40,278 nucleotides of DNA from a virus: the IMG/VR virus record IMGVR_UViG_3300027891_000003, positions 1-40,278 of that record; one strand, given 5' to 3'. The notes below the pieces were generated by a model. That model was not told where the DNA came from and made no database searches. It worked only from the letters and a program-made list of their open reading frames with translations. Each line of letters begins with the position of its first letter. Positions within the stretch are counted from its first letter, which is position 1. This document shows positions 4,252 through 31,477 of the stretch, piece after piece. The position numbers were made by a program, and so were the translations under genes.

Positions 4252-6669
4252 ATGGACTTACAAAAACTGACGCTCGCCCAATTCACACGTCTTGTCAATT
4301 CCACAAAGTACGGCACGGTGATGACCAAGTCGAAGGCCATCGAATGGCAGGATCAGGGCGGGATGCAGGTCGGAGATATTTTGAACAAAAACATCAACCT
4401 GTACAAGTTCACGGCGTGGATGTTCGACCGCCGTGTCAACCAAAGACGAAAACGCGCGGAACGCAGAGAAGACCGCAGGTATATACAGAACGAAGCAAAC
4501 AAACTCTTGCATCGCGAGACAAGAGAAGCAAACGCGGATATTGGAGAAATACCTGAGTGTGAGGACATGGCGCGTCGCGAAAGTTGCCGGGACTCTCTTG
4601 AACAGTTCATTCTCACCTACATCAAGCCGTCCATTCCCCACTGGAGGCCATTCAATAAATATCACTACCAACTGATCGAAGGAGTGGAAAGTTCGATCAA
4701 GCAACAGAAGTGCATCGCGTTTGCTTTGCCGAGGGCGTTTTTCAAAACATTTGTTTTGAGAGCGGGACTGCTGTGGGCGATTCTTTACCACAACAAAAAG
4801 CACAAATGTTTCGCCGTCACTTGCTCGACACTCAGAAAGACTTACACCACGTTCCGTTATATCATTCAAAATTTTGTTTCCGAAAAAGGTTTGATTTATC
4901 GTGATTTTCCTGAGTTGTGTTACCCGTTAAAAATTCTTTACGACAATCCCAAACGCCCGAGCACCTATCGCGGCGAACGCATACGCGGAAGTTTGGCCAA
5001 AGACCTGATCATTTTTCCATTTATTGAAGGCAGCCCCTATTCCGGTATCACGATTTCCATGTTCAGCATGGGAACGGAAGACATTCGCGGGACGGACACG
5101 ACCATCGACGGCGTGACCTATCGCACATCGATGGTATTTATTGACGACCCGCAAAACAACGAGACGGCACGCAGTAAAACGACGATTATCAATTACGATC
5201 ATAAACTGAATCAGGAAATCATGTTTCTCGCCGGGGACGACCCGGAAACAGGAAAGCAGCTCCCCACGACGGTTATTGTGGCCTGCACCTGCATCGGCGT
5301 GGACGATTTGGCCGAGCAGATTCTTGATCATAAAATTTACCCTCAGTATCGCGGTATCAAGGTTCCACGTCTGTTGAAAATGCCGGACTTGAGAAAGTGG
5401 TCGCTGTACAAGGACGTGAGAAATGCTGCCATACTTCAGGGGAAACAGGAACTGGCCACGCAGTATTATCTTGAACACAGAGAGGAACTGGACGCGGGGG
5501 CGGAGTGTATCGAAGATCATTTTGCATCCCATCAAGCCAGCGGAATTCAAGCTGCGATGGACATGTGGTGCAATAACGAATATGCCTTTTGGACCGAGCA
5601 ACAACAGAATCCCCACATGGCGCAATATGCCGTGTCGGGCGGGATCAGCGTCGATACCGTAACTCCGCCCATGATCGAGTCGCGCATGGTGAATATCAAC
5701 CGGCTTGTCATTCCATCAGAATCGCAGTTTATGGCGTCATTCATTGACGTCGGGAAAAATGTGTTGCACTACGAAACGACGGCGTTCGGTATCAAACGGA
5801 AATTCGCCCATGTTTTGGATTACTGTTTTTGGCCGGATCAGGGCGTCAGCCGCATCACGAAATCCACGCCGCGCGTCAAAATCGGCGATGCGTTTTACGG
5901 CGCGGACGAATTCGAGTGCCTATCCATTGCGCTAAGGGAATTGTTGTTTCACCTCACGCAACAAACCTATATCCTTCGAGACAAGGACGGTTCGCAAAGG
6001 CAAATGACGGAGGCGGATTTGTTGCGTCCGACGCAATACCGGCACGAATGGAGTGGTGACATTTACCCATTCTATTCTCTGATTGGGATTGACTGCACCG
6101 ATCAGACTTACGAGCAGACGATCTATGAAACCATCATCGCGTTTCAGGCGGATTGCCCGGCGTGGGAAAACCGCGTCATCCCGATGTACGCCGGATACGC
6201 GACAAACCGTTTGGTTTCACAATGGGATTTGAACTACGATCTCGGCGAACGGCAGCGCGGCAGGATGTTTGAGAACAAAGAATTTCAATCCAAGTATGGA
6301 AATACAAACTGCCACTGGATTGAGAATTCCAACAGAAATCTTGAAGTCAGGGAACGCAACCACCATGCCGTCCGCTACACGGTGTTTCGCGACGTGAACA
6401 AATTCAAGGAACGCGTGGTCAACACTTGGATCGACGGCACGACGTCCCTGTTCGCCCAAGACCCCGGCGATTTGCAGTGTTACGCCGAACACCAGAGCAA
6501 CGAAGTCCCAACAAAGGTTTACGTTGGAGGTTATGACTATTACCGTTTCAAGGAACGCAAGGGTGCCAATGGCAACGTGGATTACTTCGATTGTCGCGTC
6601 GGAACGGAAACGCTCTGCGATTACATCGGATGTTTTTCCGGGGTGAACCATGACAAGCCAAAATCGTGA
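4252..6669 (+). CDS. terL: Terminase large subunit with N-terminal extension of about 110 aa
   Basis: 805 aa. Degenerate P-loop region ALPRAFFKT, Walker B-like MVFIDDP, C-terminal nuclease-like acidic motifs (FIDVGKN, LIGIDCTD). Located at the head of the packaging/structural gene block, upstream of the portal but separated from it by the 6650-9362 island. Confidence 0.75.
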   Translation: MDLQKLTLAQFTRLVNSTKYGTVMTKSKAIEWQDQGGMQVGDILNKNINLYKFTAWMFDRRVNQRRKRAERREDRRYIQNEANKLLHRETREANADIGEIPECEDMARRESCRDSLEQFILTYIKPSIPHWRPFNKYHYQLIEGVESSIKQQKCIAFALPRAFFKTFVLRAGLLWAILYHNKKHKCFAVTCSTLRKTYTTFRYIIQNFVSEKGLIYRDFPELCYPLKILYDNPKRPSTYRGERIRGSLAKDLIIFPFIEGSPYSGITISMFSMGTEDIRGTDTTIDGVTYRTSMVFIDDPQNNETARSKTTIINYDHKLNQEIMFLAGDDPETGKQLPTTVIVACTCIGVDDLAEQILDHKIYPQYRGIKVPRLLKMPDLRKWSLYKDVRNAAILQGKQELATQYYLEHREELDAGAECIEDHFASHQASGIQAAMDMWCNNEYAFWTEQQQNPHMAQYAVSGGISVDTVTPPMIESRMVNINRLVIPSESQFMASFIDVGKNVLHYETTAFGIKRKFAHVLDYCFWPDQGVSRITKSTPRVKIGDAFYGADEFECLSIALRELLFHLTQQTYILRDKDGSQRQMTEADLLRPTQYRHEWSGDIYPFYSLIGIDCTDQTYEQTIYETIIAFQADCPAWENRVIPMYAGYATNRLVSQWDLNYDLGERQRGRMFENKEFQSKYGNTNCHWIENSNRNLEVRERNHHAVRYTVFRDVNKFKERVVNTWIDGTTSLFAQDPGDLQCYAEHQSNEVPTKVYVGGYDYYRFKERKGANGNVDYFDCRVGTETLCDYIGCFSGVNHDKPKS

Positions 6670-9812: not shown

Positions 9813-12158
9813 ATGAAACGCAAGAAACGAAAACAACCCGCCCACACTGCAAACCACGCGATTGCCCGCGTGGAGGCGGTTTCGTTTCAGCCGGATACGT
9901 GGCAACGATGGATCGGGGCAAGACAATTTCTCGATGCCGTCCAACCGATCACGGTCATGGACCGAAACGAAGCGACGGCGAGATCGCGCTATTTGTTCAC
10001 GCACAGTTCACACGTCGCCGGAATGCTTCGTAACATTGCATCGCAGGTGATCGGCACTGGGGCGGCTCTCGAATTTTCCATCGACCACCTGATCGATGAC
10101 CGCAAAAGCGCGACGCTCAACAGGATGTCCCGCGAGATTTCGTACAAAGTCCAGTCAAAATTTCATCAATGGGCGGACGAAACCGGGCTGTTTCAAGAAC
10201 TTTACAATGCGATCATCGATCTTTACACAACCGGCGACAGCTTCGGCGTCATGGTGCCCGACCCGGACAATGAAATTTGCCCCGTCCGTTACTTGACCAT
10301 CGACCCAGTGCGCGTCGGAAACCCGAACAACACGATCAACACGGTCGATCAACTCGACGGCATCAACTACAACAGGTACGGTAAGCCGACGCACTACACG
10401 ATCTACGAAATTCCAGAAAATGTCAACGGTTCGTGGAATGCGATGCGTTACAAAACCATCCCGGAAAGTCAGGTTTGCCACATTTACCTCAAGGATTTCA
10501 GCGAGGGACGGCGCGGAATCAGCCCCTTGCTTCCTGTTCTGGAAGACATTGGACGGTTGATCGACTACGAAACGAATTACCTTGAGCAGATCAAGAATCA
10601 AGCGGCGTTTATCGGTTTTATCGAGACCGAACGCAACGCCATGTCGGGTGCCAACCTCACCAAGAGCGCGTTTGAACAAGCACTCGACAATTTCAACGCG
10701 CCGAACAACAGGCACATCAACAGGTGCAAACTCCCCATCCTGACTCCCGGTAGCAATTGGAAGTCAGCACCCAACGCGCCGAACAATATCACCTACGACA
10801 ATTACGTCCAAACGAAGCTTGCAGCCATTGCACACGCCCTGCAAATCCCAAAACACATCGCAGTCAACTCGGCTGAGAAAGGTTCCTACTCGTCCATCCG
10901 GCTTGAACAACAACGCCAGCAGGTTTGGCTGGACACGCTGAGAAAAATCGTGGACGTAAGAATCCACAATCGCATCTTCCGGTATTTTTACCAGTGGATT
11001 TTGCCGGATTTGTACGAAGAGTACATCGACGAATACTTCAAGTATATTCCCGAACCGGAAAACGTTTGCATCAAGTGGAACTACCCGACGCCGGAGGGAA
11101 TCAACCCGAAAGACAAGGTGGAAATGCTTGTCCTCGCGCTCGACAACGACCTGATTACACCCGATCAGGCTGTCAAGGCGATGGGCAACTCGACCAGCGT
11201 CACGGACATCATCGACAAAAAGACAGAGAAGGACACCTACCGCAACCAAATGGCCGGGACGGTGGAAACCAGTTACGTTGACATCACTCTTGCCAACAGT
11301 ATCAAGGAAACGATCAAGCAGGTGCAGGCCGGTGAGATCATGGAAAGCCAGGCGATTCAACTGCTCGAAAAAGTCTATGGCATCGAACGCGAAACGGCAG
11401 TGTCGATCATTACCGGAGAAGACCCCAAAACACCTGAAACGACGCTTGAATTGACGCCGGAAACGAACACGCTCAACAAATCGGTAGCGAATCGCACAAG
11501 AATTGTCATGCCGATCTGCGGTACACTCAAGCAAAAGGTCATTGCCGCTTTGCAGGAAAACAAAAACAGGGATTTGTACTTTGTGGACGCCGTGCTTGTT
11601 TCGACCGGCATGAATAATAAAGACGACGTGTTTTTGCGTGATGAACTCTGGAAGGCGCGCAACACGCCGATCAACAAGCCCACGAACATCGAGCACTATT
11701 CCAATATCGCCATCGGTCACATTACGGAAACATGGGCGACGGCTTTTGGAAGCGACGAAGAAATCCGTTCTCTGCGCGATTTGCCGGAAGAGTTTCACTT
11801 GAATTGCCGCAGCGTCATTTACCGGAAGCTTGAAGGCGATTTGGGAACGGCCATCCGCGATTTGATTTTGCGAATCGAGGCCGACGAAATGAGCGTGTCG
11901 ATGGAGGTATGGTTCGACGATTACGATTTTGCCTTTCAAAATAAGGACGGAAGCATTGAAGTCATTCCGCGCGACTCAAGCAATGCGTCCATGAAAAAAT
12001 ACCTCAAAGCCTATCGCGGTCCGGGCGAGTACGAAGGGCGGCGCATCGGCAGAGCTTTTCGCGGCATCGAGTTCATCGGGATGGGTTTCGTTGAAAACCC
12101 GGCGAACGAATATTCGGAAATTTTGGGCGGGTCGTTTTTTGAGTCCGCATTAAATTAA
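9813..12158 (+). CDS. Portal protein with C-terminal prohead-protease-like extension
   Basis: 782 aa from ATG 9813; the track start at 9777 lies inside the palindromic element. Positioned as the first large gene of the head operon, immediately upstream of the capsid gene (the terminase lies 3.1 kb further upstream, beyond the accessory island). The last ~220 aa carry His (NIEHYSNIAIGHI) and Ser (MSVSMEVW) motifs and GMGFVENPAN, like HK97-type prohead proteases. Confidence 0.65.
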   Translation: MKRKKRKQPAHTANHAIARVEAVSFQPDTWQRWIGARQFLDAVQPITVMDRNEATARSRYLFTHSSHVAGMLRNIASQVIGTGAALEFSIDHLIDDRKSATLNRMSREISYKVQSKFHQWADETGLFQELYNAIIDLYTTGDSFGVMVPDPDNEICPVRYLTIDPVRVGNPNNTINTVDQLDGINYNRYGKPTHYTIYEIPENVNGSWNAMRYKTIPESQVCHIYLKDFSEGRRGISPLLPVLEDIGRLIDYETNYLEQIKNQAAFIGFIETERNAMSGANLTKSAFEQALDNFNAPNNRHINRCKLPILTPGSNWKSAPNAPNNITYDNYVQTKLAAIAHALQIPKHIAVNSAEKGSYSSIRLEQQRQQVWLDTLRKIVDVRIHNRIFRYFYQWILPDLYEEYIDEYFKYIPEPENVCIKWNYPTPEGINPKDKVEMLVLALDNDLITPDQAVKAMGNSTSVTDIIDKKTEKDTYRNQMAGTVETSYVDITLANSIKETIKQVQAGEIMESQAIQLLEKVYGIERETAVSIITGEDPKTPETTLELTPETNTLNKSVANRTRIVMPICGTLKQKVIAALQENKNRDLYFVDAVLVSTGMNNKDDVFLRDELWKARNTPINKPTNIEHYSNIAIGHITETWATAFGSDEEIRSLRDLPEEFHLNCRSVIYRKLEGDLGTAIRDLILRIEADEMSVSMEVWFDDYDFAFQNKDGSIEVIPRDSSNASMKKYLKAYRGPGEYEGRRIGRAFRGIEFIGMGFVENPANEYSEILGGSFFESALN

Positions 12159-17589: not shown

Positions 17590-18001
17590 TGCAACGAAAC
17601 CGGCAACCGTGGTGTTTGACAAGGAATACTGGCTGGCACGGCTTCGGTCAACGAGCGATCCCGAAACGCAGCAGCAGATCATCAACGCGATGATGGCCGC
17701 GTGCAACTCCGGTCGCGCCGCGTTTTTCCGTGGCGAACTCGGTCAGGGGGCATTGGCCGCGCAAGTGGGGATCGGACTCAACGAACCCCTGACGCCGGAG
17801 GATTTCCATGACCTGGTGGGAACGCTGTTCACGCGGCCTTATGCGAACAAACTGCGCATGAACGACGCCGGAATTCCCGATATCCAAACGTTGTTTGACG
17901 CTTACGGTTTTTCGCAGGCCGACCTTACTGAGTTTCCGTTCCTTAAAAACTTCCAATTTTCGCTGAATATCGAAACGCGGTTGATCATCGCCGAAAAATA
18001 A
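17573..18001 (+). CDS. Hypothetical protein
   Basis: 142-aa ORF in the operon; no recognisable motif. Confidence 0.5.
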   Translation: MQNIFDATKPATVVFDKEYWLARLRSTSDPETQQQIINAMMAACNSGRAAFFRGELGQGALAAQVGIGLNEPLTPEDFHDLVGTLFTRPYANKLRMNDAGIPDIQTLFDAYGFSQADLTEFPFLKNFQFSLNIETRLIIAEK

Positions 18002-28722: not shown

Positions 28723-28946
28723 CTGGACTTCAAGTTGCATTTCTTCATCCGAGCACTGAAATAGTCATGAACGGTAAAATCATTTCAAACGATGGAAATC
28801 AGTTTTTAAGCGTTATCATAGGAAAAGATAAAGTCATCAAGATTCACTACGACCATGTTCTCTGGGTCAAGACAAGTACCCGCTGGCCCTCATGGGTTTA
28901 CAAACTTTTGAAAAAAAATACAAATTCAAACCTCAAAAATTTTTGA
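28707..28946 (+). CDS. Hypothetical protein
   Basis: MDYLRNAVTG... in ORF 28470-28946; an alternative ATG is at 28686. Confidence 0.4.
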   Translation, partial: LRNAVTGLQVAFLHPSTEIVMNGKIISNDGNQFLSVIIGKDKVIKIHYDHVLWVKTSTRWPSWVYKLLKKNTNSNLKNF

Positions 28947-28965
28947 AATTTTTTTTGGAATCCCC

Positions 28966-28994
28966 TTGCAAACGGAATAGTCCTGTGTTAAGAT
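28966..28994 (+). promoter_or_regulatory. Putative promoter facing the tRNA-like fragment
   Basis: TTGCAA-17 nt-TAAGAT, about 35 nt upstream of the tRNA-like 5' end. The same stretch read on the minus strand resembles a degenerate copy of the 25505/32817 cassette (gACTATtccgtttgcaa). Confidence 0.35.
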
Positions 28995-29031
28995 AGCTCT
29001 CAACAATTCGATTTATTGCCACCAGGATTTC

Positions 29032-29082
29032 GGGTAGGTAGCTCAGTTGGTAGAGCACAGGACTGAAAAGCCTGTGTCCTAC
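29032..29082 (+). pseudogene. tRNA-Phe(GAA)-like 5' fragment (acceptor 5' strand, D arm, anticodon arm, variable loop; no T arm or 3' acceptor)
   Basis: GGGTAGG-TA-GCTC-AGTTGGTA-GAGC-A-CAGGA-CTGAAAA-GCCTG-TGTC-CT; compare E. coli tRNA-Phe ..GCTCAGTCGGTAGAGCAGGGGATTGAAAATCCCCGTGTCCTTGG. Downstream there is no GTTCRANYC loop and no CCTACCC. Confidence 0.6.
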
Positions 29083-29197
29083 GGGGCAAAAACTCAAAAG
29101 TCCTGTGACATAGAACAATAAATCGAGGCGTTGGTGCCTCGTTTACGAAATTGGGTCAAGCCGGTCTCCGCGAGGCACCGGGCAAGTTAAATTGAAA

Positions 29198-29226
29198 ACG
29201 GCATTTTTGACAGTCAAAAATGCCGT
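29198..29226. other. Perfect 13-bp stem / 3-nt loop hairpin
   Basis: acggcatttttga-cag-tcaaaaatgccgt. Confidence 0.8.
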
Positions 29227-29622
29227 GCGTCTCGAAGCGAATCTTTCGCATTAGCGTGCATTGGTTCAATGAGACTTGGTCTTAACTTGACCCAGTAATT
29301 TTTTGTACATCAATTCTTTGAACGGACGTAAGACATCCGAACACTGAAACGATATTTTAACCAATGTACGTTATTTCATTTCTCACACTCGCTGTGAGTT
29401 TCTGGAATGACATAACCCAAGCCTCAAAGGTGTTCGTTTGTGCGCGGATTGTACTGAACTTTGCGAAACATTGAAACGCATTGAAAGCCTGCTGCGATTG
29501 CATTTACATATTAATGACAAGGATGAGCGCGGATTCAGCAAACTGCTTGCTATGACTCATACGCAAGTTCCTGAATATTTCGATGTTGCAAAACAAATCA
29601 AAGAAGACATGTTGAATGTCAA

Positions 29623-30075
29623 CTACCTGACGAATTTTGTAAGCAAACCAAATGAGTAAACCAATGCCGTATAAATGGCAATGGGAAACCAATATTTGAT
29701 TTGTTCGGAAGTTAGTTGCGAGATGGCTTGAGTGATTGCCTCGCGTGAGAAATCGCCAATGGGGGCAAGTTTTGATTTGATTTTTTCCCAACGGTTTTTA
29801 TCCCTGATTTTGTCGAGATATTCGTGACCTGACCACGTAATGAATTCAATGTGAGGTTGCACACTGTGTATCCTTCCCTTGCATTTGATAAAACCAGCCG
29901 ACACCATGATTTCAATGGCATTCCATATTTCATTGCATTGATAAGATTTGAAATGATCGAATTCGATCACGGCGTCATGTTTTCCATGTAATTTTTCTGA
30001 CTCGTCAATTGCGATGTTATTATGTTTTTCAACTAATAATAAAATTTCACGAATTAAATCAAGATTGCGTTTCAT
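29623..30075 (-). CDS. DUF2513-like winged-helix protein with C-terminal TM helix (paralogue B)
   Basis: MKRNLDLIREILLLVEKH...FITWSGHEYLDKIRDKNRWEKIK is the canonical DUF2513 pattern. C-terminus YWFPIAIYTALVYSFGLLTKFV. AGGAGG RBS. Confidence 0.75.
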   Translation of the reverse strand: MKRNLDLIREILLLVEKHNNIAIDESEKLHGKHDAVIEFDHFKSYQCNEIWNAIEIMVSAGFIKCKGRIHSVQPHIEFITWSGHEYLDKIRDKNRWEKIKSKLAPIGDFSREAITQAISQLTSEQIKYWFPIAIYTALVYSFGLLTKFVR

Positions 30076-30247
30076 AAATAAACCTCCTGAAGTTGTGGGT
30101 GTAAAAAAGTTTTTGACCTTTCGATTTTACCCCACGACTTTCGGGAAACAAGAATTGCAATGACAGCCGGGAAAGACCGGCAACTACCAAGATCGTATTG
30201 AAGGTAATACACCGTGTGAGCTTTGCATTGCAGTCCGGCACGGAGAA

Positions 30248-30272
30248 ACAGGTTCGATCCCTGGGCTTGGCT
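30248..30272 (+). other. tRNA 3'-end-like segment (T arm + acceptor strand); candidate attP core
   Basis: ACAGG-TTCGATC-CCTGG-GCTTGGC-T has G53 T54 T55 C56 R57 A58..C61 in register. The sequence upstream does not fold as a tRNA. It lies 245 nt 5' of the integrase gene. Confidence 0.4.
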
Positions 30273-30517
30273 TTTGAAAACATAACAAGTGATCGTTACA
30301 CAGTGTTGTTTTTCAACAGATTATAGCGATTGTAAACATAAGAACCATGAATTCCATTGATTTTTTGGAATTTGTAGGTCAGGAAAAAATGACATTGAAT
30401 TAGGCTGAAAACTGTTGTCAAAATGTTTGGCAACGGAACACATAACAGCCTGGCATCGGAGGTCGGCAATCCATTGAACGGCGTCCGGTGCGAACATCAG
30501 AGGTTGCGTACCGACGT

Positions 30518-31477
30518 ATGAGGTACTCAACCATGACGATGCAACATTTTTTTGACACGACCTACAAACAGTATTTGTCCGCGAAGGGAACGCGGGCAAG
30601 CAGTATTTCCGATGTGCAGAGCACACTAAACAAATGGAATGATATCATCGGAGCAATCGCACTGGACGCGATTGCCGACGAAACGATTTGGCATTTTGCC
30701 GCGACGCTGTCCGGCCAAAAGAACGCAAAGGGCTTGGCTTTCAGCCCGAACACCACAAGAAAGCATTTGAGAAATATTCGGGCGATTTTGCGGTACGCCT
30801 TGAAGCGACGCATGATCGGCCAAATGCCGGACATCATCATGCCGAAAGAACGATTTCGCGGAGCGTGCGACTCATTCACATTCAGCGAAATTCAGACGTT
30901 GATCCAAACAACATCGATGTTCAAAGGCCAAGAGATTGATGGCATGGACGCGGCGGAATGGTGGAAACAATTGATTGTTTTCCTTTACTGTTCGGCCTGC
31001 CGTGTTGGAACGGCAACGAAGGCAAGATTCGACTGGGTGCATGGCAACCGGCTCGAAATTGCCGCAAACACCGATGGAGTCAAGACCTGCTATGATTTAC
31101 CGCTTGGAAACGAGGCCCAATCGGTGATAGGAATGATGCGGCGATCCCACAAGGAAAGCCGTATCTTTCCGAACCCTCACAAGAGGGAATGGTTGCACCG
31201 CCGGTTTCGGGAGTTATGCGAAGAAGCAGGAATACCGCCAGAACGCCGGTTTGGTTTTCACGGGATTCGTAAGCATACCGGCAGTGTCATGGCGACAAAG
31301 GATTTTGCGGCGGCGGTCAAACTGCTTGGCCACAGCGATCCCAAAGTGACGGCCAGGTATTATTTGAATCCCGAAATCGTTTGCGAAAAGGCGGTGGAAA
31401 GGATACCGCCGCTGCACCATGACGGGATATTCAAGCGGGTTTGGAAACAGATTGTGCGATTGTTTTTTGGAAAATAA
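30518..31477 (+). CDS. int: Tyrosine recombinase / phage integrase
   Basis: C-terminal FGFHGIRKHTGS...LLGHSDPKVTARYY (HxxR ... Y) and earlier ACRVGTA (Arg I). Start ambiguous: GTG 30488, or ATG 30518, 30533 or 30539. Confidence 0.85.
   Translation: MRYSTMTMQHFFDTTYKQYLSAKGTRASSISDVQSTLNKWNDIIGAIALDAIADETIWHFAATLSGQKNAKGLAFSPNTTRKHLRNIRAILRYALKRRMIGQMPDIIMPKERFRGACDSFTFSEIQTLIQTTSMFKGQEIDGMDAAEWWKQLIVFLYCSACRVGTATKARFDWVHGNRLEIAANTDGVKTCYDLPLGNEAQSVIGMMRRSHKESRIFPNPHKREWLHRRFRELCEEAGIPPERRFGFHGIRKHTGSVMATKDFAAAVKLLGHSDPKVTARYYLNPEIVCEKAVERIPPLHHDGIFKRVWKQIVRLFFGK

What the first reader, a model, noticed from the sequence alone, without database searches (positions are those of the whole stretch)
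28947..29440. Structured non-coding region containing a promoter-fronted tRNA-Phe(GAA) 5' fragment and a cluster of AGTCCTGTG 9-mers
Nt 29032-29082 read as positions 1 to about 50 of a bacterial tRNA-Phe (acceptor 5' strand, canonical D arm, CAGGA-CTGAAAA anticodon arm, TGTC variable loop). There is an A31:G39 mismatch, and no T arm or 3' acceptor strand follows. A TTGCAA-17-TAAGAT promoter-like element lies about 35 nt upstream. An 11-bp perfect inverted repeat (tcgatttattg 29008-29018 / caataaatcga 29116-29126) brackets the fragment. The 9-mer AGTCCTGTG occurs at 28979-28987 and 29099-29107, and inverted inside the anticodon stem at 29056-29064. The anticodon-loop/3'-stem segment is duplicated 30 nt downstream (actgaaaagcctgtg / actcaaaagtcctgtg). 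Further on, ggtgcctcg (29133-29141) can pair either with cgaggc upstream or with cgaggcacc (29171-29179), giving alternative helices. A perfect 13-bp hairpin lies at 29198-29226. Possible explanations are an attachment site that supplies a promoter plus the 5' half of the host tRNA-Phe (the reverse of the usual 3'-end arrangement), a tRNA-derived decoy or regulatory RNA, or a relic of imprecise excision.
Basis: partly seen in the sequence, partly recalled or inferred. Interest (0 to 1): 0.62.

Follow-up and report, generated by a model that had tools for sequence, protein, structure and literature searches.

The report
Phage attachment site holding half a tRNA
This stretch is a crippled copy of the host's phenylalanine tRNA gene (front part perfect, T arm missing) lying in the integration region of a temperate phage of gut Planctomycetaceae. 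It most likely lets the phage insert into that tRNA gene "backwards" and rebuild it from the front, a rare but documented layout.

Summary
Window 29032-29069 equals positions 1-38 of the tRNA-Phe of gut Planctomycetaceae, base for base. Positions 39-48 follow with one substitution and one deletion. There is no T arm. A 5-nt remnant can pair with the 5' acceptor strand. ARAGORN finds no tRNA, and Rfam's tRNA model scores 26.4 bits against a threshold of 29.

The window is a complete 40-kb temperate phage, and its tyrosine integrase gene starts 1.45 kb downstream.

My best reading, at about 0.45, is a reverse-polarity attP: strand exchange in the anticodon loop, with the phage supplying a promoter and the 5' half. 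Supporting points:
- Only the 5' part is kept perfect.
- CACAGG/CCTGTG sites cluster around the loop.
- An unrelated IMG/VR phage has the same T-arm-less layout.
- Two Planctomycetota genomes show real reverse-type integrations at tRNA-Phe, broken after position 38.

No lysogen junction of this phage was found. One public contig (L186) joins an intact tRNA-Phe 3' half plus 31 nt to the phage's right arm at 29117-29125. It is either a sibling allele holding the whole tRNA unit, or an attL with exchange at the palindrome 29124-29141. That rival stands at about 0.22.

This is a known kind: 159 of 3919 Islander islands. This scan has already reported such attPs on other DNA.

The parts
28966..28994 (+). 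Promoter-like element TTGCAA-17-TAAGAT, 37 nt before tRNA position 1. Its spacer holds motif copy 1 (AATAGTCCTGTG, 28976-28987).
   Evidence: Read from the sequence. It has 8 of 12 consensus matches and the scan did not flag it. The second phage L159 has TTGCAA-17-GATAAT about 40 nt before its tRNA piece.
29008..29018 (+). Leader arm (TCGATTTATTG) of the 11-bp inverted repeat that brackets the tRNA piece.
   Evidence: I6. It forms the closing helix of the minimum-energy fold, z -3.4 to -4.3.
29032..29069 (+). tRNA-Phe(GAA) positions 1-38: acceptor 5' strand GGGTAGG, D arm, 5' anticodon stem and anticodon loop. Identical to the tRNA-Phe of gut Planctomycetaceae. The inverted site CACAGGACT lies at 29056-29064. 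Under the best reading, strand exchange happens in the loop, 29063-29069.
29070..29082 (+). Altered tRNA positions 39-48 (T39G; loss of one G turns CCTGGTG into CCTGTG), then CCTAC (29078-29082), which can pair with GTAGG. There is no T arm.
   Evidence: The L159 piece shows the same T-arm-less alignment at 35.1 bits.
29093..29110 (+). Second degenerate copy of anticodon loop plus 3' stem (ACTCAAAAGTCCTGTGAC), containing AGTCCTGTG at 29099-29107. It resembles the start of host tRNA-Phe terminators (CTCTAAAAAGTCC).
   Evidence: (D4). Local alignment against shuffles gives p about 0.012.
29116..29126 (+). Trailer arm (CAATAAATCGA) of the 11-bp inverted repeat. Contig L186 stops matching the window left of 29117, with SNPs at 29119 and 29124.
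29124..29141 (.). Palindrome CGAGGC-GTTGGT-GCCTCG. It is terminator-like (flagged on the minus strand) and is the rival candidate for the crossover core. A third half-site CGAGGCACC lies at 29171-29179.
   Evidence: Identity between L186 and the window starts at 29125.
29198..29226 (-). 29-nt perfect palindrome followed by TTTCAATTT on the minus strand. It is the likely terminator of the minus-strand DUF2513 gene. Its centre base 29212 is A, T or N in different assemblies.
   Evidence: (I8).
29623..30075 (-). DUF2513 winged-helix gene between the tRNA piece and the integrase. Another variant of the phage carries a different allele.
30248..30272 (+). Second tRNA-derived piece: a T arm plus 3' acceptor strand (ACAGGTTCGATCCCTGGGCTTGGC), 261 nt before int. 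It is probably a relic of a former usual-polarity attP.
   Evidence: Read from the sequence. No tRNA with this 3' end was found in 241 million metagenome records, nor within 2-3 mismatches in 405 Planctomycetota genomes apart from one 2-mismatch hit. It is absent from variant L185.
30533..31477 (+). Tyrosine integrase, 314 aa as called (an alternative GTG start lies at 30488). It has a SAM-like domain and a catalytic domain and no room for an arm-binding domain.
   Evidence: The catalytic R, K, H-x-x-R, H and Y columns are invariant in alignment A1.

Best explanation
The stretch is the attachment site (attP) of a temperate phage of gut Planctomycetaceae, built from a captured copy of the host's tRNA-Phe transcription unit.

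Shown:
- The copy keeps the first 38 nt of the tRNA in perfect form.
- Everything 3' of the anticodon loop has been altered or lost. That covers T39G, one G deleted, the T arm gone, and the acceptor 3' strand reduced to CCTAC.

Inferred:
- The promoter-like element and the leader belong to the same captured unit.
- The phage's tyrosine integrase binds the inverted sites CACAGG / CCTGTG on either side of the anticodon loop. It may also bind the extra copies at 28979 and 29099. It exchanges strands within the loop, CTGAAAA.
- Integration then leaves the host's own promoter and 5' half joined to the phage's dead right part, on the int side (attL).
- At the other end (attR), the phage's promoter and 5' half are joined to the host's 3' half. 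This rebuilds a working tRNA-Phe.

This is the mirror image of the usual arrangement. The small T-arm-less RNA that the free phage could make would be a by-product.
For: 1. Identity pattern. Positions 1-38 match 38/38, including the rare acceptor GGGTAGG. The match is to tRNA-Phe in 15 metagenome loci (some of whose record names resemble those of the phage's own JGI samples) and in MAGs G003, G004, G613, G618 and others. The remaining roughly 18 tRNA-derived nucleotides carry at least 5 changes.

2. A second case. The IMG/VR phage L159/L161 has no detectable protein similarity to this one. It carries TTGCAA-17-GATAAT, a leader, tRNA-Phe 1-49, no T arm, and a 5-of-7 acceptor remnant, flanked by a leader/trailer inverted repeat. 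It sits between late genes and an XRE gene. Rfam scores it 35.1 bits with the T arm skipped.

3. Reverse-type integration at tRNA-Phe does occur in this phylum.
   - In G002 and G001 the native locus, which has syntenic upstream genes, ends after position 38 and runs into foreign DNA.
   - The intact tRNA-Phe lies elsewhere, with syntenic downstream DNA.
   - In G002 a tyrosine integrase gene stops 86 nt before that intact copy.
   - An element-type upstream region recurs in G001 and G002.

4. Site architecture. CACAGG occurs 4 times in 126 nt against 0.37 per kb. AGTCCTGTG occurs 3 times, only here. The G deletion creates a perfect CACAGG...CCTGTG inverted repeat around the loop.

5. Position. 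The piece lies between the late genes and the lysogeny module, 1.45 kb from int.

6. Literature. Anticodon-centred attP sites are the commonest class, and 159 of 3919 islands displace a 5' fragment (PMC4383910). Recombination with the 5'-distal part is rare but documented (PMC6563490).
Against: - No attL or attR of this phage was found. All 15 metagenome hits to the 38-mer are plain native tRNA genes, although records close to the window may have been withheld.
- Contig L186 comes from the same phage strain. It joins an intact tRNA-Phe 3' half plus 31 nt to window 29117 onward. A crossover in the anticodon loop of the window allele cannot produce this. It needs a sibling allele, or a crossover further right.
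- The integrase's relatives (28-36% identity) lie 0.4-1.8 kb downstream of intact tRNA-Arg, tRNA-Ser and tRNA-Asp genes, which is the usual polarity.
- A T-arm/3'-acceptor piece sits 261 nt before int, in the classical position.
- The promoter match is weak.
- The integrase of the proven G002 case is not closely related to this one.
Confidence: 0.45

Rival explanations
1. The phage integrates just downstream of the host tRNA-Phe gene, exchanging strands in or next to the palindrome CGAGGC-GTTGGT-GCCTCG (29124-29141). The host tRNA stays whole. The T-arm-less copy is only left-arm (P-arm) DNA, captured from the target locus. It ends up at the attR end of the prophage and rebuilds nothing.
For: - L186 reads: tRNA-Phe 3' half, then 31 nt, then window 29125 onward (DUF2513, then int). 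Its 1.7 kb of right arm has no SNP apart from two at the junction. This is what an attL of this kind would look like.
- Identity resumes exactly at the left edge of a palindrome with a 6-nt spacer, and there is a third half-site at 29171-79.
- It gives the layout 'intact tRNA, 1.45 kb, int', as in the integrase's relatives.
- In G003:C60 and G518:C120 the sequence shared by the two elements appears to begin some 70-90 nt after the tRNA's 3' end. This was judged by eye from the printed intergenic regions; blastn aligned only a 37-nt block further downstream and the int gene.
Against: - Neither the 31-nt post-tRNA segment nor the palindrome was found next to tRNA-Phe in 32 genomes of the best-matching genus, or in 261 genomes of the family. 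L186's left part is therefore not shown to be host DNA.
- It gives no reason why two unrelated phages keep a promoter-like element and a perfect 5' part while the rest decays.
- The palindrome is equally well a terminator of the tRNA unit or of the minus-strand gene.
Confidence: 0.22
2. It is a decayed phage tRNA gene with no role in integration. The phage lineage carried a complete tRNA-Phe cassette (promoter, tRNA, terminator hairpin). L186 is the allele in which it is still intact. It may have served codon supply, or tRNA-dependent lysogeny as in Fionnbharth. The window allele is a pseudogene that lost the T arm.
For: - The L186 allele has an intact 3' half followed by a hairpin, in the same flanks.
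- The architecture promoter-like element, tRNA, hairpin fits a gene cassette.
- tRNA-dependent lysogeny is documented in PMC10865867.
- The window has no other tRNA.
Against: - The changes are not spread as in a decaying gene: 0 of 38 against at least 5 of about 18.
- The broken allele is identical in five assemblies, including variants with different int and DUF2513 alleles.
- The same T-arm-less form occurs in an unrelated phage.
- The extra CACAGG/CCTGTG copies look added, not decayed.
Confidence: 0.13
3. The T-arm-less tRNA-Phe look-alike is itself the product. It would be a small RNA made from its own promoter, closed by the 11-bp leader/trailer helix. It would act as a decoy for a factor that binds or cuts the tRNA-Phe anticodon arm, or as a regulator, through alternative pairing of AGUCCUGUG with the anticodon stem.
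For: - Strong predicted structure (z -3.4 to -4.3).
- The 5-bp acceptor remnant follows the variable loop directly in both phages.
- Both have leader/trailer pairing.
- A weak terminator-like hairpin follows.
Against: - No transcript data are available.
- Both strands fold equally well, as expected of DNA palindromes.
- The minimum-energy fold is a rod, not a cloverleaf.
- The A31:G39 mismatch weakens the anticodon stem.
- One 9-mer copy lies upstream of the putative transcription start.
- With only two examples, no covariation test is possible.
Confidence: 0.1
4. The real attP is the T-arm plus 3' acceptor piece at 30248-30272, directly upstream of int. That would be the usual polarity, with AACATAAC-type repeats as arm sites. 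The tRNA-Phe piece would then be unrelated to this integrase.
For: - Classical position and orientation.
- Repeats at 30277-87, 30333-43 and 30437-47, with an inverted copy at 30017-28.
- Same layout as in the integrase's relatives.
Against: - No tRNA with this 3' end in 241 million metagenome records.
- No match within 3 mismatches in G001-G004. Only one 2-mismatch match in 401 Planctomycetota genomes, and that one lies in an odd 12-tRNA array.
- Variant L185 lacks the piece but keeps the tRNA-Phe piece.
- A 50%-identical integrase has no such piece in its 320 nt upstream.
- The integrase has no arm-binding domain.
Confidence: 0.05

Closest known systems
Integrative elements that recombine with the 5'-distal part of a tRNA gene (Zhao & Williams 2002, J Bacteriol 184:859; 159 of 3919 islands with a 5' tDNA fragment in Islander, PMC4383910)
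   Same: The element carries the 5' part of the target tRNA gene, identical to the host's from +1 to the anticodon loop, with an upstream promoter-like element. A tyrosine integrase is nearby. Displaced host 5' halves are seen in related genomes (G001, G002).
   Different: The junctions of this particular phage were not observed. The attP also retains altered remains of tRNA positions 39-48 and of the acceptor 3' strand, so it looks like a whole captured tRNA unit minus the T arm, not a clean half. I know the Zhao & Williams paper only from citations, because the text was not held.
Usual anticodon-loop attP sites of temperate phages and islands (Williams 2002 classification; 2083 anticodon-centred sites in Islander)
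   Same: The anticodon stem would serve as the pair of inverted integrase sites, and the 7-nt loop as the exchange region. The integrase is a tyrosine recombinase. Its relatives lie next to intact tRNAs.
   Different: The phage holds the 5' side of the gene instead of the 3' side, so it must bring a promoter.
Actinomycete integrative plasmids whose attP spans a whole tRNA gene (SLP1- and pSAM2-type long identity segments; from my own knowledge, not checked here)
   Same: The L186 allele suggests a form of this phage region that holds the complete tRNA-Phe unit.
   Different: In the window allele the T arm and most of the 3' strand are gone. The host is a planctomycete and the element is a tailed phage.
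tRNA-dependent lysogeny (Guerrero-Bustamante & Hatfull 2024, PMC10865867)
   Same: A phage integrates at a tRNA gene and a phage-borne tRNA sequence of the same isotype lies near the integration module.
   Different: There the phage carries a complete, separate tRNA gene and shares only about 10 bp with attB. Here the window has no complete tRNA, and the shared block is 38 nt running from the tRNA's first base.

Membership tests
tRNA (Rfam RF00005), functional tRNA-Phe gene | Score at or above the family's gathering threshold, and detection by a tRNA finder | tested here: not met
   26.4 bits against a threshold of 29. ARAGORN finds 0 genes in the window.
tRNA (Rfam RF00005), functional tRNA-Phe gene | Complete cloverleaf with T arm and 7-bp acceptor stem | tested here: not met
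   The T arm (19 model positions) is replaced by 1 nt. Only 5 acceptor pairs remain. There is an A31:G39 mismatch.
Reverse-polarity tDNA attP (5' fragment type) | The element carries the 5' part of the tRNA, identical to the host gene from +1 to the crossover | tested here: met
   38/38 identity to the tRNA-Phe of gut Planctomycetaceae, including the acceptor GGGTAGG.
Reverse-polarity tDNA attP (5' fragment type) | A promoter upstream of the 5' fragment on the element | tested here: inconclusive
   TTGCAA-17-TAAGAT is present but has only 8 of 12 consensus matches and was not flagged. There is no transcript data, and Planctomycete promoters are poorly known.
Reverse-polarity tDNA attP (5' fragment type) | In lysogens, a displaced host 5' fragment upstream (attL) and a regenerated tRNA at the far end (attR) | tested here: inconclusive
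   Not found for this phage. The one junction-like contig, L186, does not have this form. The feature was found for other elements at tRNA-Phe in G001 and G002.
Reverse-polarity tDNA attP (5' fragment type) | A tyrosine integrase encoded by the element near the site | tested here: met
   PF00589 plus PF13102, phrog_1, at 30533-31477, which is 1.45 kb downstream.
Usual-polarity tDNA attP (3' fragment type), for the piece at 30248-30272 | A 3' tRNA fragment identical to a host tRNA's 3' end | tested here: not met
   0 exact matches to the 21-mer in 241 million metagenome records. No match within 3 mismatches in G001-G004, and one 2-mismatch match in 401 genomes of the phylum.
tRNA-dependent lysogeny | [quoted passage not shown] | tested here: not met
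   The window has no complete tRNA. The L186 allele may have one, but its 5' side was not seen.

The most novel reading that the evidence does not exclude
The T-arm-less tRNA-Phe look-alike is a real, selected small RNA of Planctomycete temperate phages. Its features would be: own promoter, leader/trailer closing helix, 5-bp acceptor, D arm and GAA anticodon arm. It recurs in two phages with no detectable protein similarity to each other. It would act as a mimic of tRNA-Phe, for example as a decoy for an anticodon-arm-binding or anticodon-cutting host factor. That role could be in addition to, or instead of, its role at the DNA level in integration.
Probability: 0.12. Interest if true: 0.65.

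Novelty: new member of a known kind. Interest (0 to 1): 0.36.

Why it matters
If the best reading holds, it adds a phage example from a little-studied host phylum to the rare reverse way of integrating into tRNA genes.

Together with the genomic arrays in G001 and G002 and the second IMG/VR phage, it suggests that the anticodon loop of tRNA-Phe is a recurrent reverse-polarity target in Planctomycetota.

It also ties this uncultured phage to hosts carrying the tRNA-Phe with acceptor GGGTAGG/CCTGCCC, which are gut Planctomycetaceae.

The practical value is modest: it predicts the host and the integration site. The kind of element is already documented, and this scan has reported similar attPs before on other DNA.

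Tried and rejected
Rejected.
- **Chance resemblance.** Rejected.
- **Two halves of one split tRNA** (29032-29082 plus 30248-30272). Rejected, because the acceptor strands GGGTAGG and GCTTGGC do not pair.
- **L004 as a host junction.** Rejected. It is a phage variant with another DUF2513 allele.
- **Relatives of the integrase in IMG/VR.** None found with the single protein or with the alignment.
- **Exact copies of the junction sequences in IMG/VR.** None.
- **Prophages related to this phage next to the 17 native GGGTAGG tRNA-Phe loci.** None.
- **Closer integrase relatives in 261 Planctomycetaceae genomes.** Only G003.
- **Host attB carrying the palindrome or L186's 31-nt segment.** Not found in 32 or 261 genomes. 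A weak hit in G650 lies in a region that reads like repetitive coding sequence, with no tRNA nearby, and is probably chance.
- **Window 29079-29124 as L186's post-tRNA segment after a precise T-arm deletion.** The alignment is not significant (p 0.15), so I do not rely on it, nor on the 'compensatory' changes it would imply.
- **Inferring the lysogen structure from where the Logan contigs L181 and L186 end.** Inconclusive, because I do not know whether those contigs keep their k-1 overlaps.
- **Literature.** Zhao & Williams 2002 and Williams 2002 could not be read.

Full report
**What the window is.** The window is a complete IMG/VR virus record of 40,278 bp with direct terminal repeats. Most genes are on the + strand. 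Genes of unknown function, taken to be late genes, end at 28946. A minus-strand DUF2513 gene lies at 29623-30075. A tyrosine integrase (PF00589 plus PF13102, phrog_1) lies at 30533-31477. Its catalytic residues are invariant among its few relatives. It has no room for an arm-binding domain. The finding therefore lies where temperate phages usually keep attP, between the late genes and the lysogeny module.

**Checking the observation.** ARAGORN finds no tRNA. Rfam's tRNA model matches 29034-29082 at 26.4 bits, below the threshold of 29. The T arm is replaced by one nucleotide, and GUAGG pairs with CCUAC. These were mostly Planctomycetota, Bacteroidota and Rokubacteria.

The full 38-mer includes the uncommon acceptor strand GGGTAGG. 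It occurs in two gut or rumen Planctomycete MAGs (G003, G004) and in 15 metagenome contigs. All of these are intact tRNA-Phe genes with 3' strand CCTGCCC. Some of those contigs have JGI record names of the same series as the phage's own samples (my reading of the names; nothing here gives the habitat). Homology to the tRNA continues to position 48 with T39G and loss of one G. After that there is no T arm. The 9-mers, the inverted repeats and the hairpins are all as described. The T-arm-less form is identical in five assemblies.

**Two tRNA pieces.** A second tRNA-derived piece lies 261 nt before int at 30248-30272. I tested it as the real attP. No tRNA with that 3' end exists in 241 million metagenome records. 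None was found within 3 mismatches in four candidate host genomes. Only one 2-mismatch match appears in 401 genomes of the phylum, inside an odd 12-tRNA array. A variant of the phage (L185), with an int allele only 80% identical, lacks the piece but keeps the tRNA-Phe piece unchanged. I read the T-arm piece as a relic.

**Evidence that reverse-type integration at tRNA-Phe is real in this phylum.**
- In MAGs G002 and G001 the native tRNA-Phe locus is recognisable by a syntenic divergent 547-aa gene, which in relatives is followed by an intact tRNA. In both MAGs the locus ends after position 38 and continues into unrelated DNA.
- Each MAG has an intact tRNA-Phe on another contig, and the DNA downstream of those copies is shared between the two MAGs.
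- In G002 a 381-aa tyrosine integrase gene stops 86 nt before that intact copy.
- An element-type upstream region precedes the intact copy in G001. In G002 it precedes a further displaced 5' half, as expected of serial integrations.
- Such elements are known. Islander lists 159 islands with a 5' fragment against 3760 with a 3' fragment (PMC4383910; see also PMC6563490).

**A second phage with the same layout.** IMG/VR contig L159/L161 shares no detectable protein with this phage. It carries TTGCAA-17-GATAAT, a 40-nt leader, tRNA-Phe 1-49 and no T arm. A 3' acceptor remnant pairs at 5 of 7 positions. An 8-bp leader/trailer inverted repeat flanks the piece. It sits between the terminase-side genes and an XRE gene. 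Rfam scores it 35.1 bits with the T arm skipped. In both phages the 5' part is perfect (0 changes in 38 and in 49 nt), while the few remaining tRNA-derived nucleotides carry several changes. A reverse-polarity attP predicts this asymmetry, because only the 5' part becomes part of a working tRNA. In the window, the G deletion also makes CACAGG...CCTGTG a perfect inverted repeat around the loop. Two further copies of AGTCCTGTG lie 77 nt upstream and 35 nt downstream. They look like recombinase-binding sites, but that is an inference.

**Evidence that does not fit simply.**
- The integrase's relatives in Planctomycetaceae MAGs (28-36% identity) lie 0.4-1.8 kb downstream of intact tRNA-Arg, tRNA-Ser and tRNA-Asp genes on the same strand. 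That is the usual polarity.
- Logan contig L186 matches window 30852 down to 29117 with no difference except two SNPs at 29119 and 29124. It then continues with 31 unrelated nucleotides and the 3' half of a genuine tRNA-Phe: end of the anticodon loop, variable loop, T arm, CCTGCCC and A.
- That 3' half is 100% identical to that of G613, G618 and G609.
- So a molecule exists in which an intact-looking tRNA-Phe lies 31 nt to the left of the palindrome 29124-29141 and is followed by DUF2513 and int.

L186 has two possible readings. One is a sibling allele of the phage that still holds the whole tRNA-Phe unit; this is compatible with the best reading, and the window allele would then be a T-arm deletion. 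The other is an attL formed by a crossover at the palindrome, which is the main rival. I could not find the 31-nt segment or the palindrome beside tRNA-Phe in 32 genomes of the best-matching genus or in 261 genomes of the family. L186's left part is therefore not shown to be host DNA. The ends of L181 and L186 did not settle the matter.

**Weighing.**

| Reading | Weight |
|---|---|
| Reverse-polarity attP | about 0.45 |
| Crossover at the palindrome, host tRNA untouched | about 0.22 |
| Decayed phage tRNA gene with no att role | about 0.13 |
| A functional T-arm-less RNA as the main point | about 0.10 |
| The T-arm piece near int as the real attP | about 0.05 |

Whichever holds, the piece is derived from the host's tRNA-Phe locus and points to gut Planctomycetaceae with the GGGTAGG tRNA-Phe as hosts.

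**Novelty.** This is a new member of a known, uncommon kind. The scan has already reported reverse-polarity attPs and 5'-half arrays on other DNA (e1-3430328, e1-1522916, e1-2849109, e1-1261154, e1-2100859). The read-mapping route that would decide between the readings was not available.

Noticed in passing
window 29212: The centre base of the perfect 29-nt palindrome 29198-29226 is A in the window, L182 and L186. It is T in L003 and L185, and N in the two JGI assemblies. An A/T flip at the centre equals the reverse complement of the whole palindrome. This could be a plain SNP or a sign that the palindrome flips.
   Followed up: no
window 30155-30394 and 29840-30075: Natural variants of the same phage carry a different int-proximal spacer and an int allele only 80% identical (L185). 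That spacer has ACAGGACTGTG where the window has the T-arm piece. Another variant (L004) has a different DUF2513 allele. The boundaries are sharp, so the lysogeny module is mosaic.
   Followed up: partly
L140 (G002:C27) 10740-12085, L143 (G002:C31) 4418-5722, L142 (G001:C436) about 590-628, L063 (G001:C550) about 628: Serial reverse-type integrations at tRNA-Phe in two Planctomycetota MAGs. Host 5' halves are left behind after position 38 or 42. An element-borne upstream region recurs. A tyrosine integrase gene stops 86 nt before the regenerated tRNA.
   Followed up: partly
L159 14370-14520 (= L161 about 17700-17860), IMGVR_UViG_3300028399_000037: An unrelated phage fragment with a promoter-like element, a leader and a T-arm-less tRNA-Phe (1-49 plus acceptor remnant), bracketed by GGAATGCA/TGCATTCC. 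It scores 35.1 bits on Rfam's tRNA model.
   Followed up: partly
L144 11230-11247 and 11290-11560; L150 5390-5420 and 5450-5700: Right after the intact tRNA-Arg (G003:C60) and tRNA-Ser (G518:C120) that precede the integrase relatives, there is a hairpin whose stem repeats that tRNA's own anticodon stem. The two elements also share a conserved, structured-looking, promoter-fronted leader of about 250 nt before int.
   Followed up: no
L173 about 4583-4660 (minus strand), metagenome contig Ga0082212_10006525: Directly upstream of a native GGGTAGG tRNA-Phe lie tandem 24-nt repeats. Each ends in TTTTTCGGGTAG, that is, it includes the first six bases of the tRNA.
   Followed up: no
L146 375-2207 (G016:C10): A dense array of 12 tRNA genes on one strand in a Planctomycetota genome, including a non-canonical tRNA-Phe and a tRNA with anticodon ATA.
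   Followed up: no
L196 (G619:C26), about 100 nt downstream of an intact tRNA-Phe: A 3'-partial tRNA-Phe copy (about positions 24-76) follows an intact tRNA-Phe and its terminator. It may be a decayed tandem copy or a displaced 3' fragment of a usual-polarity element.
   Followed up: no
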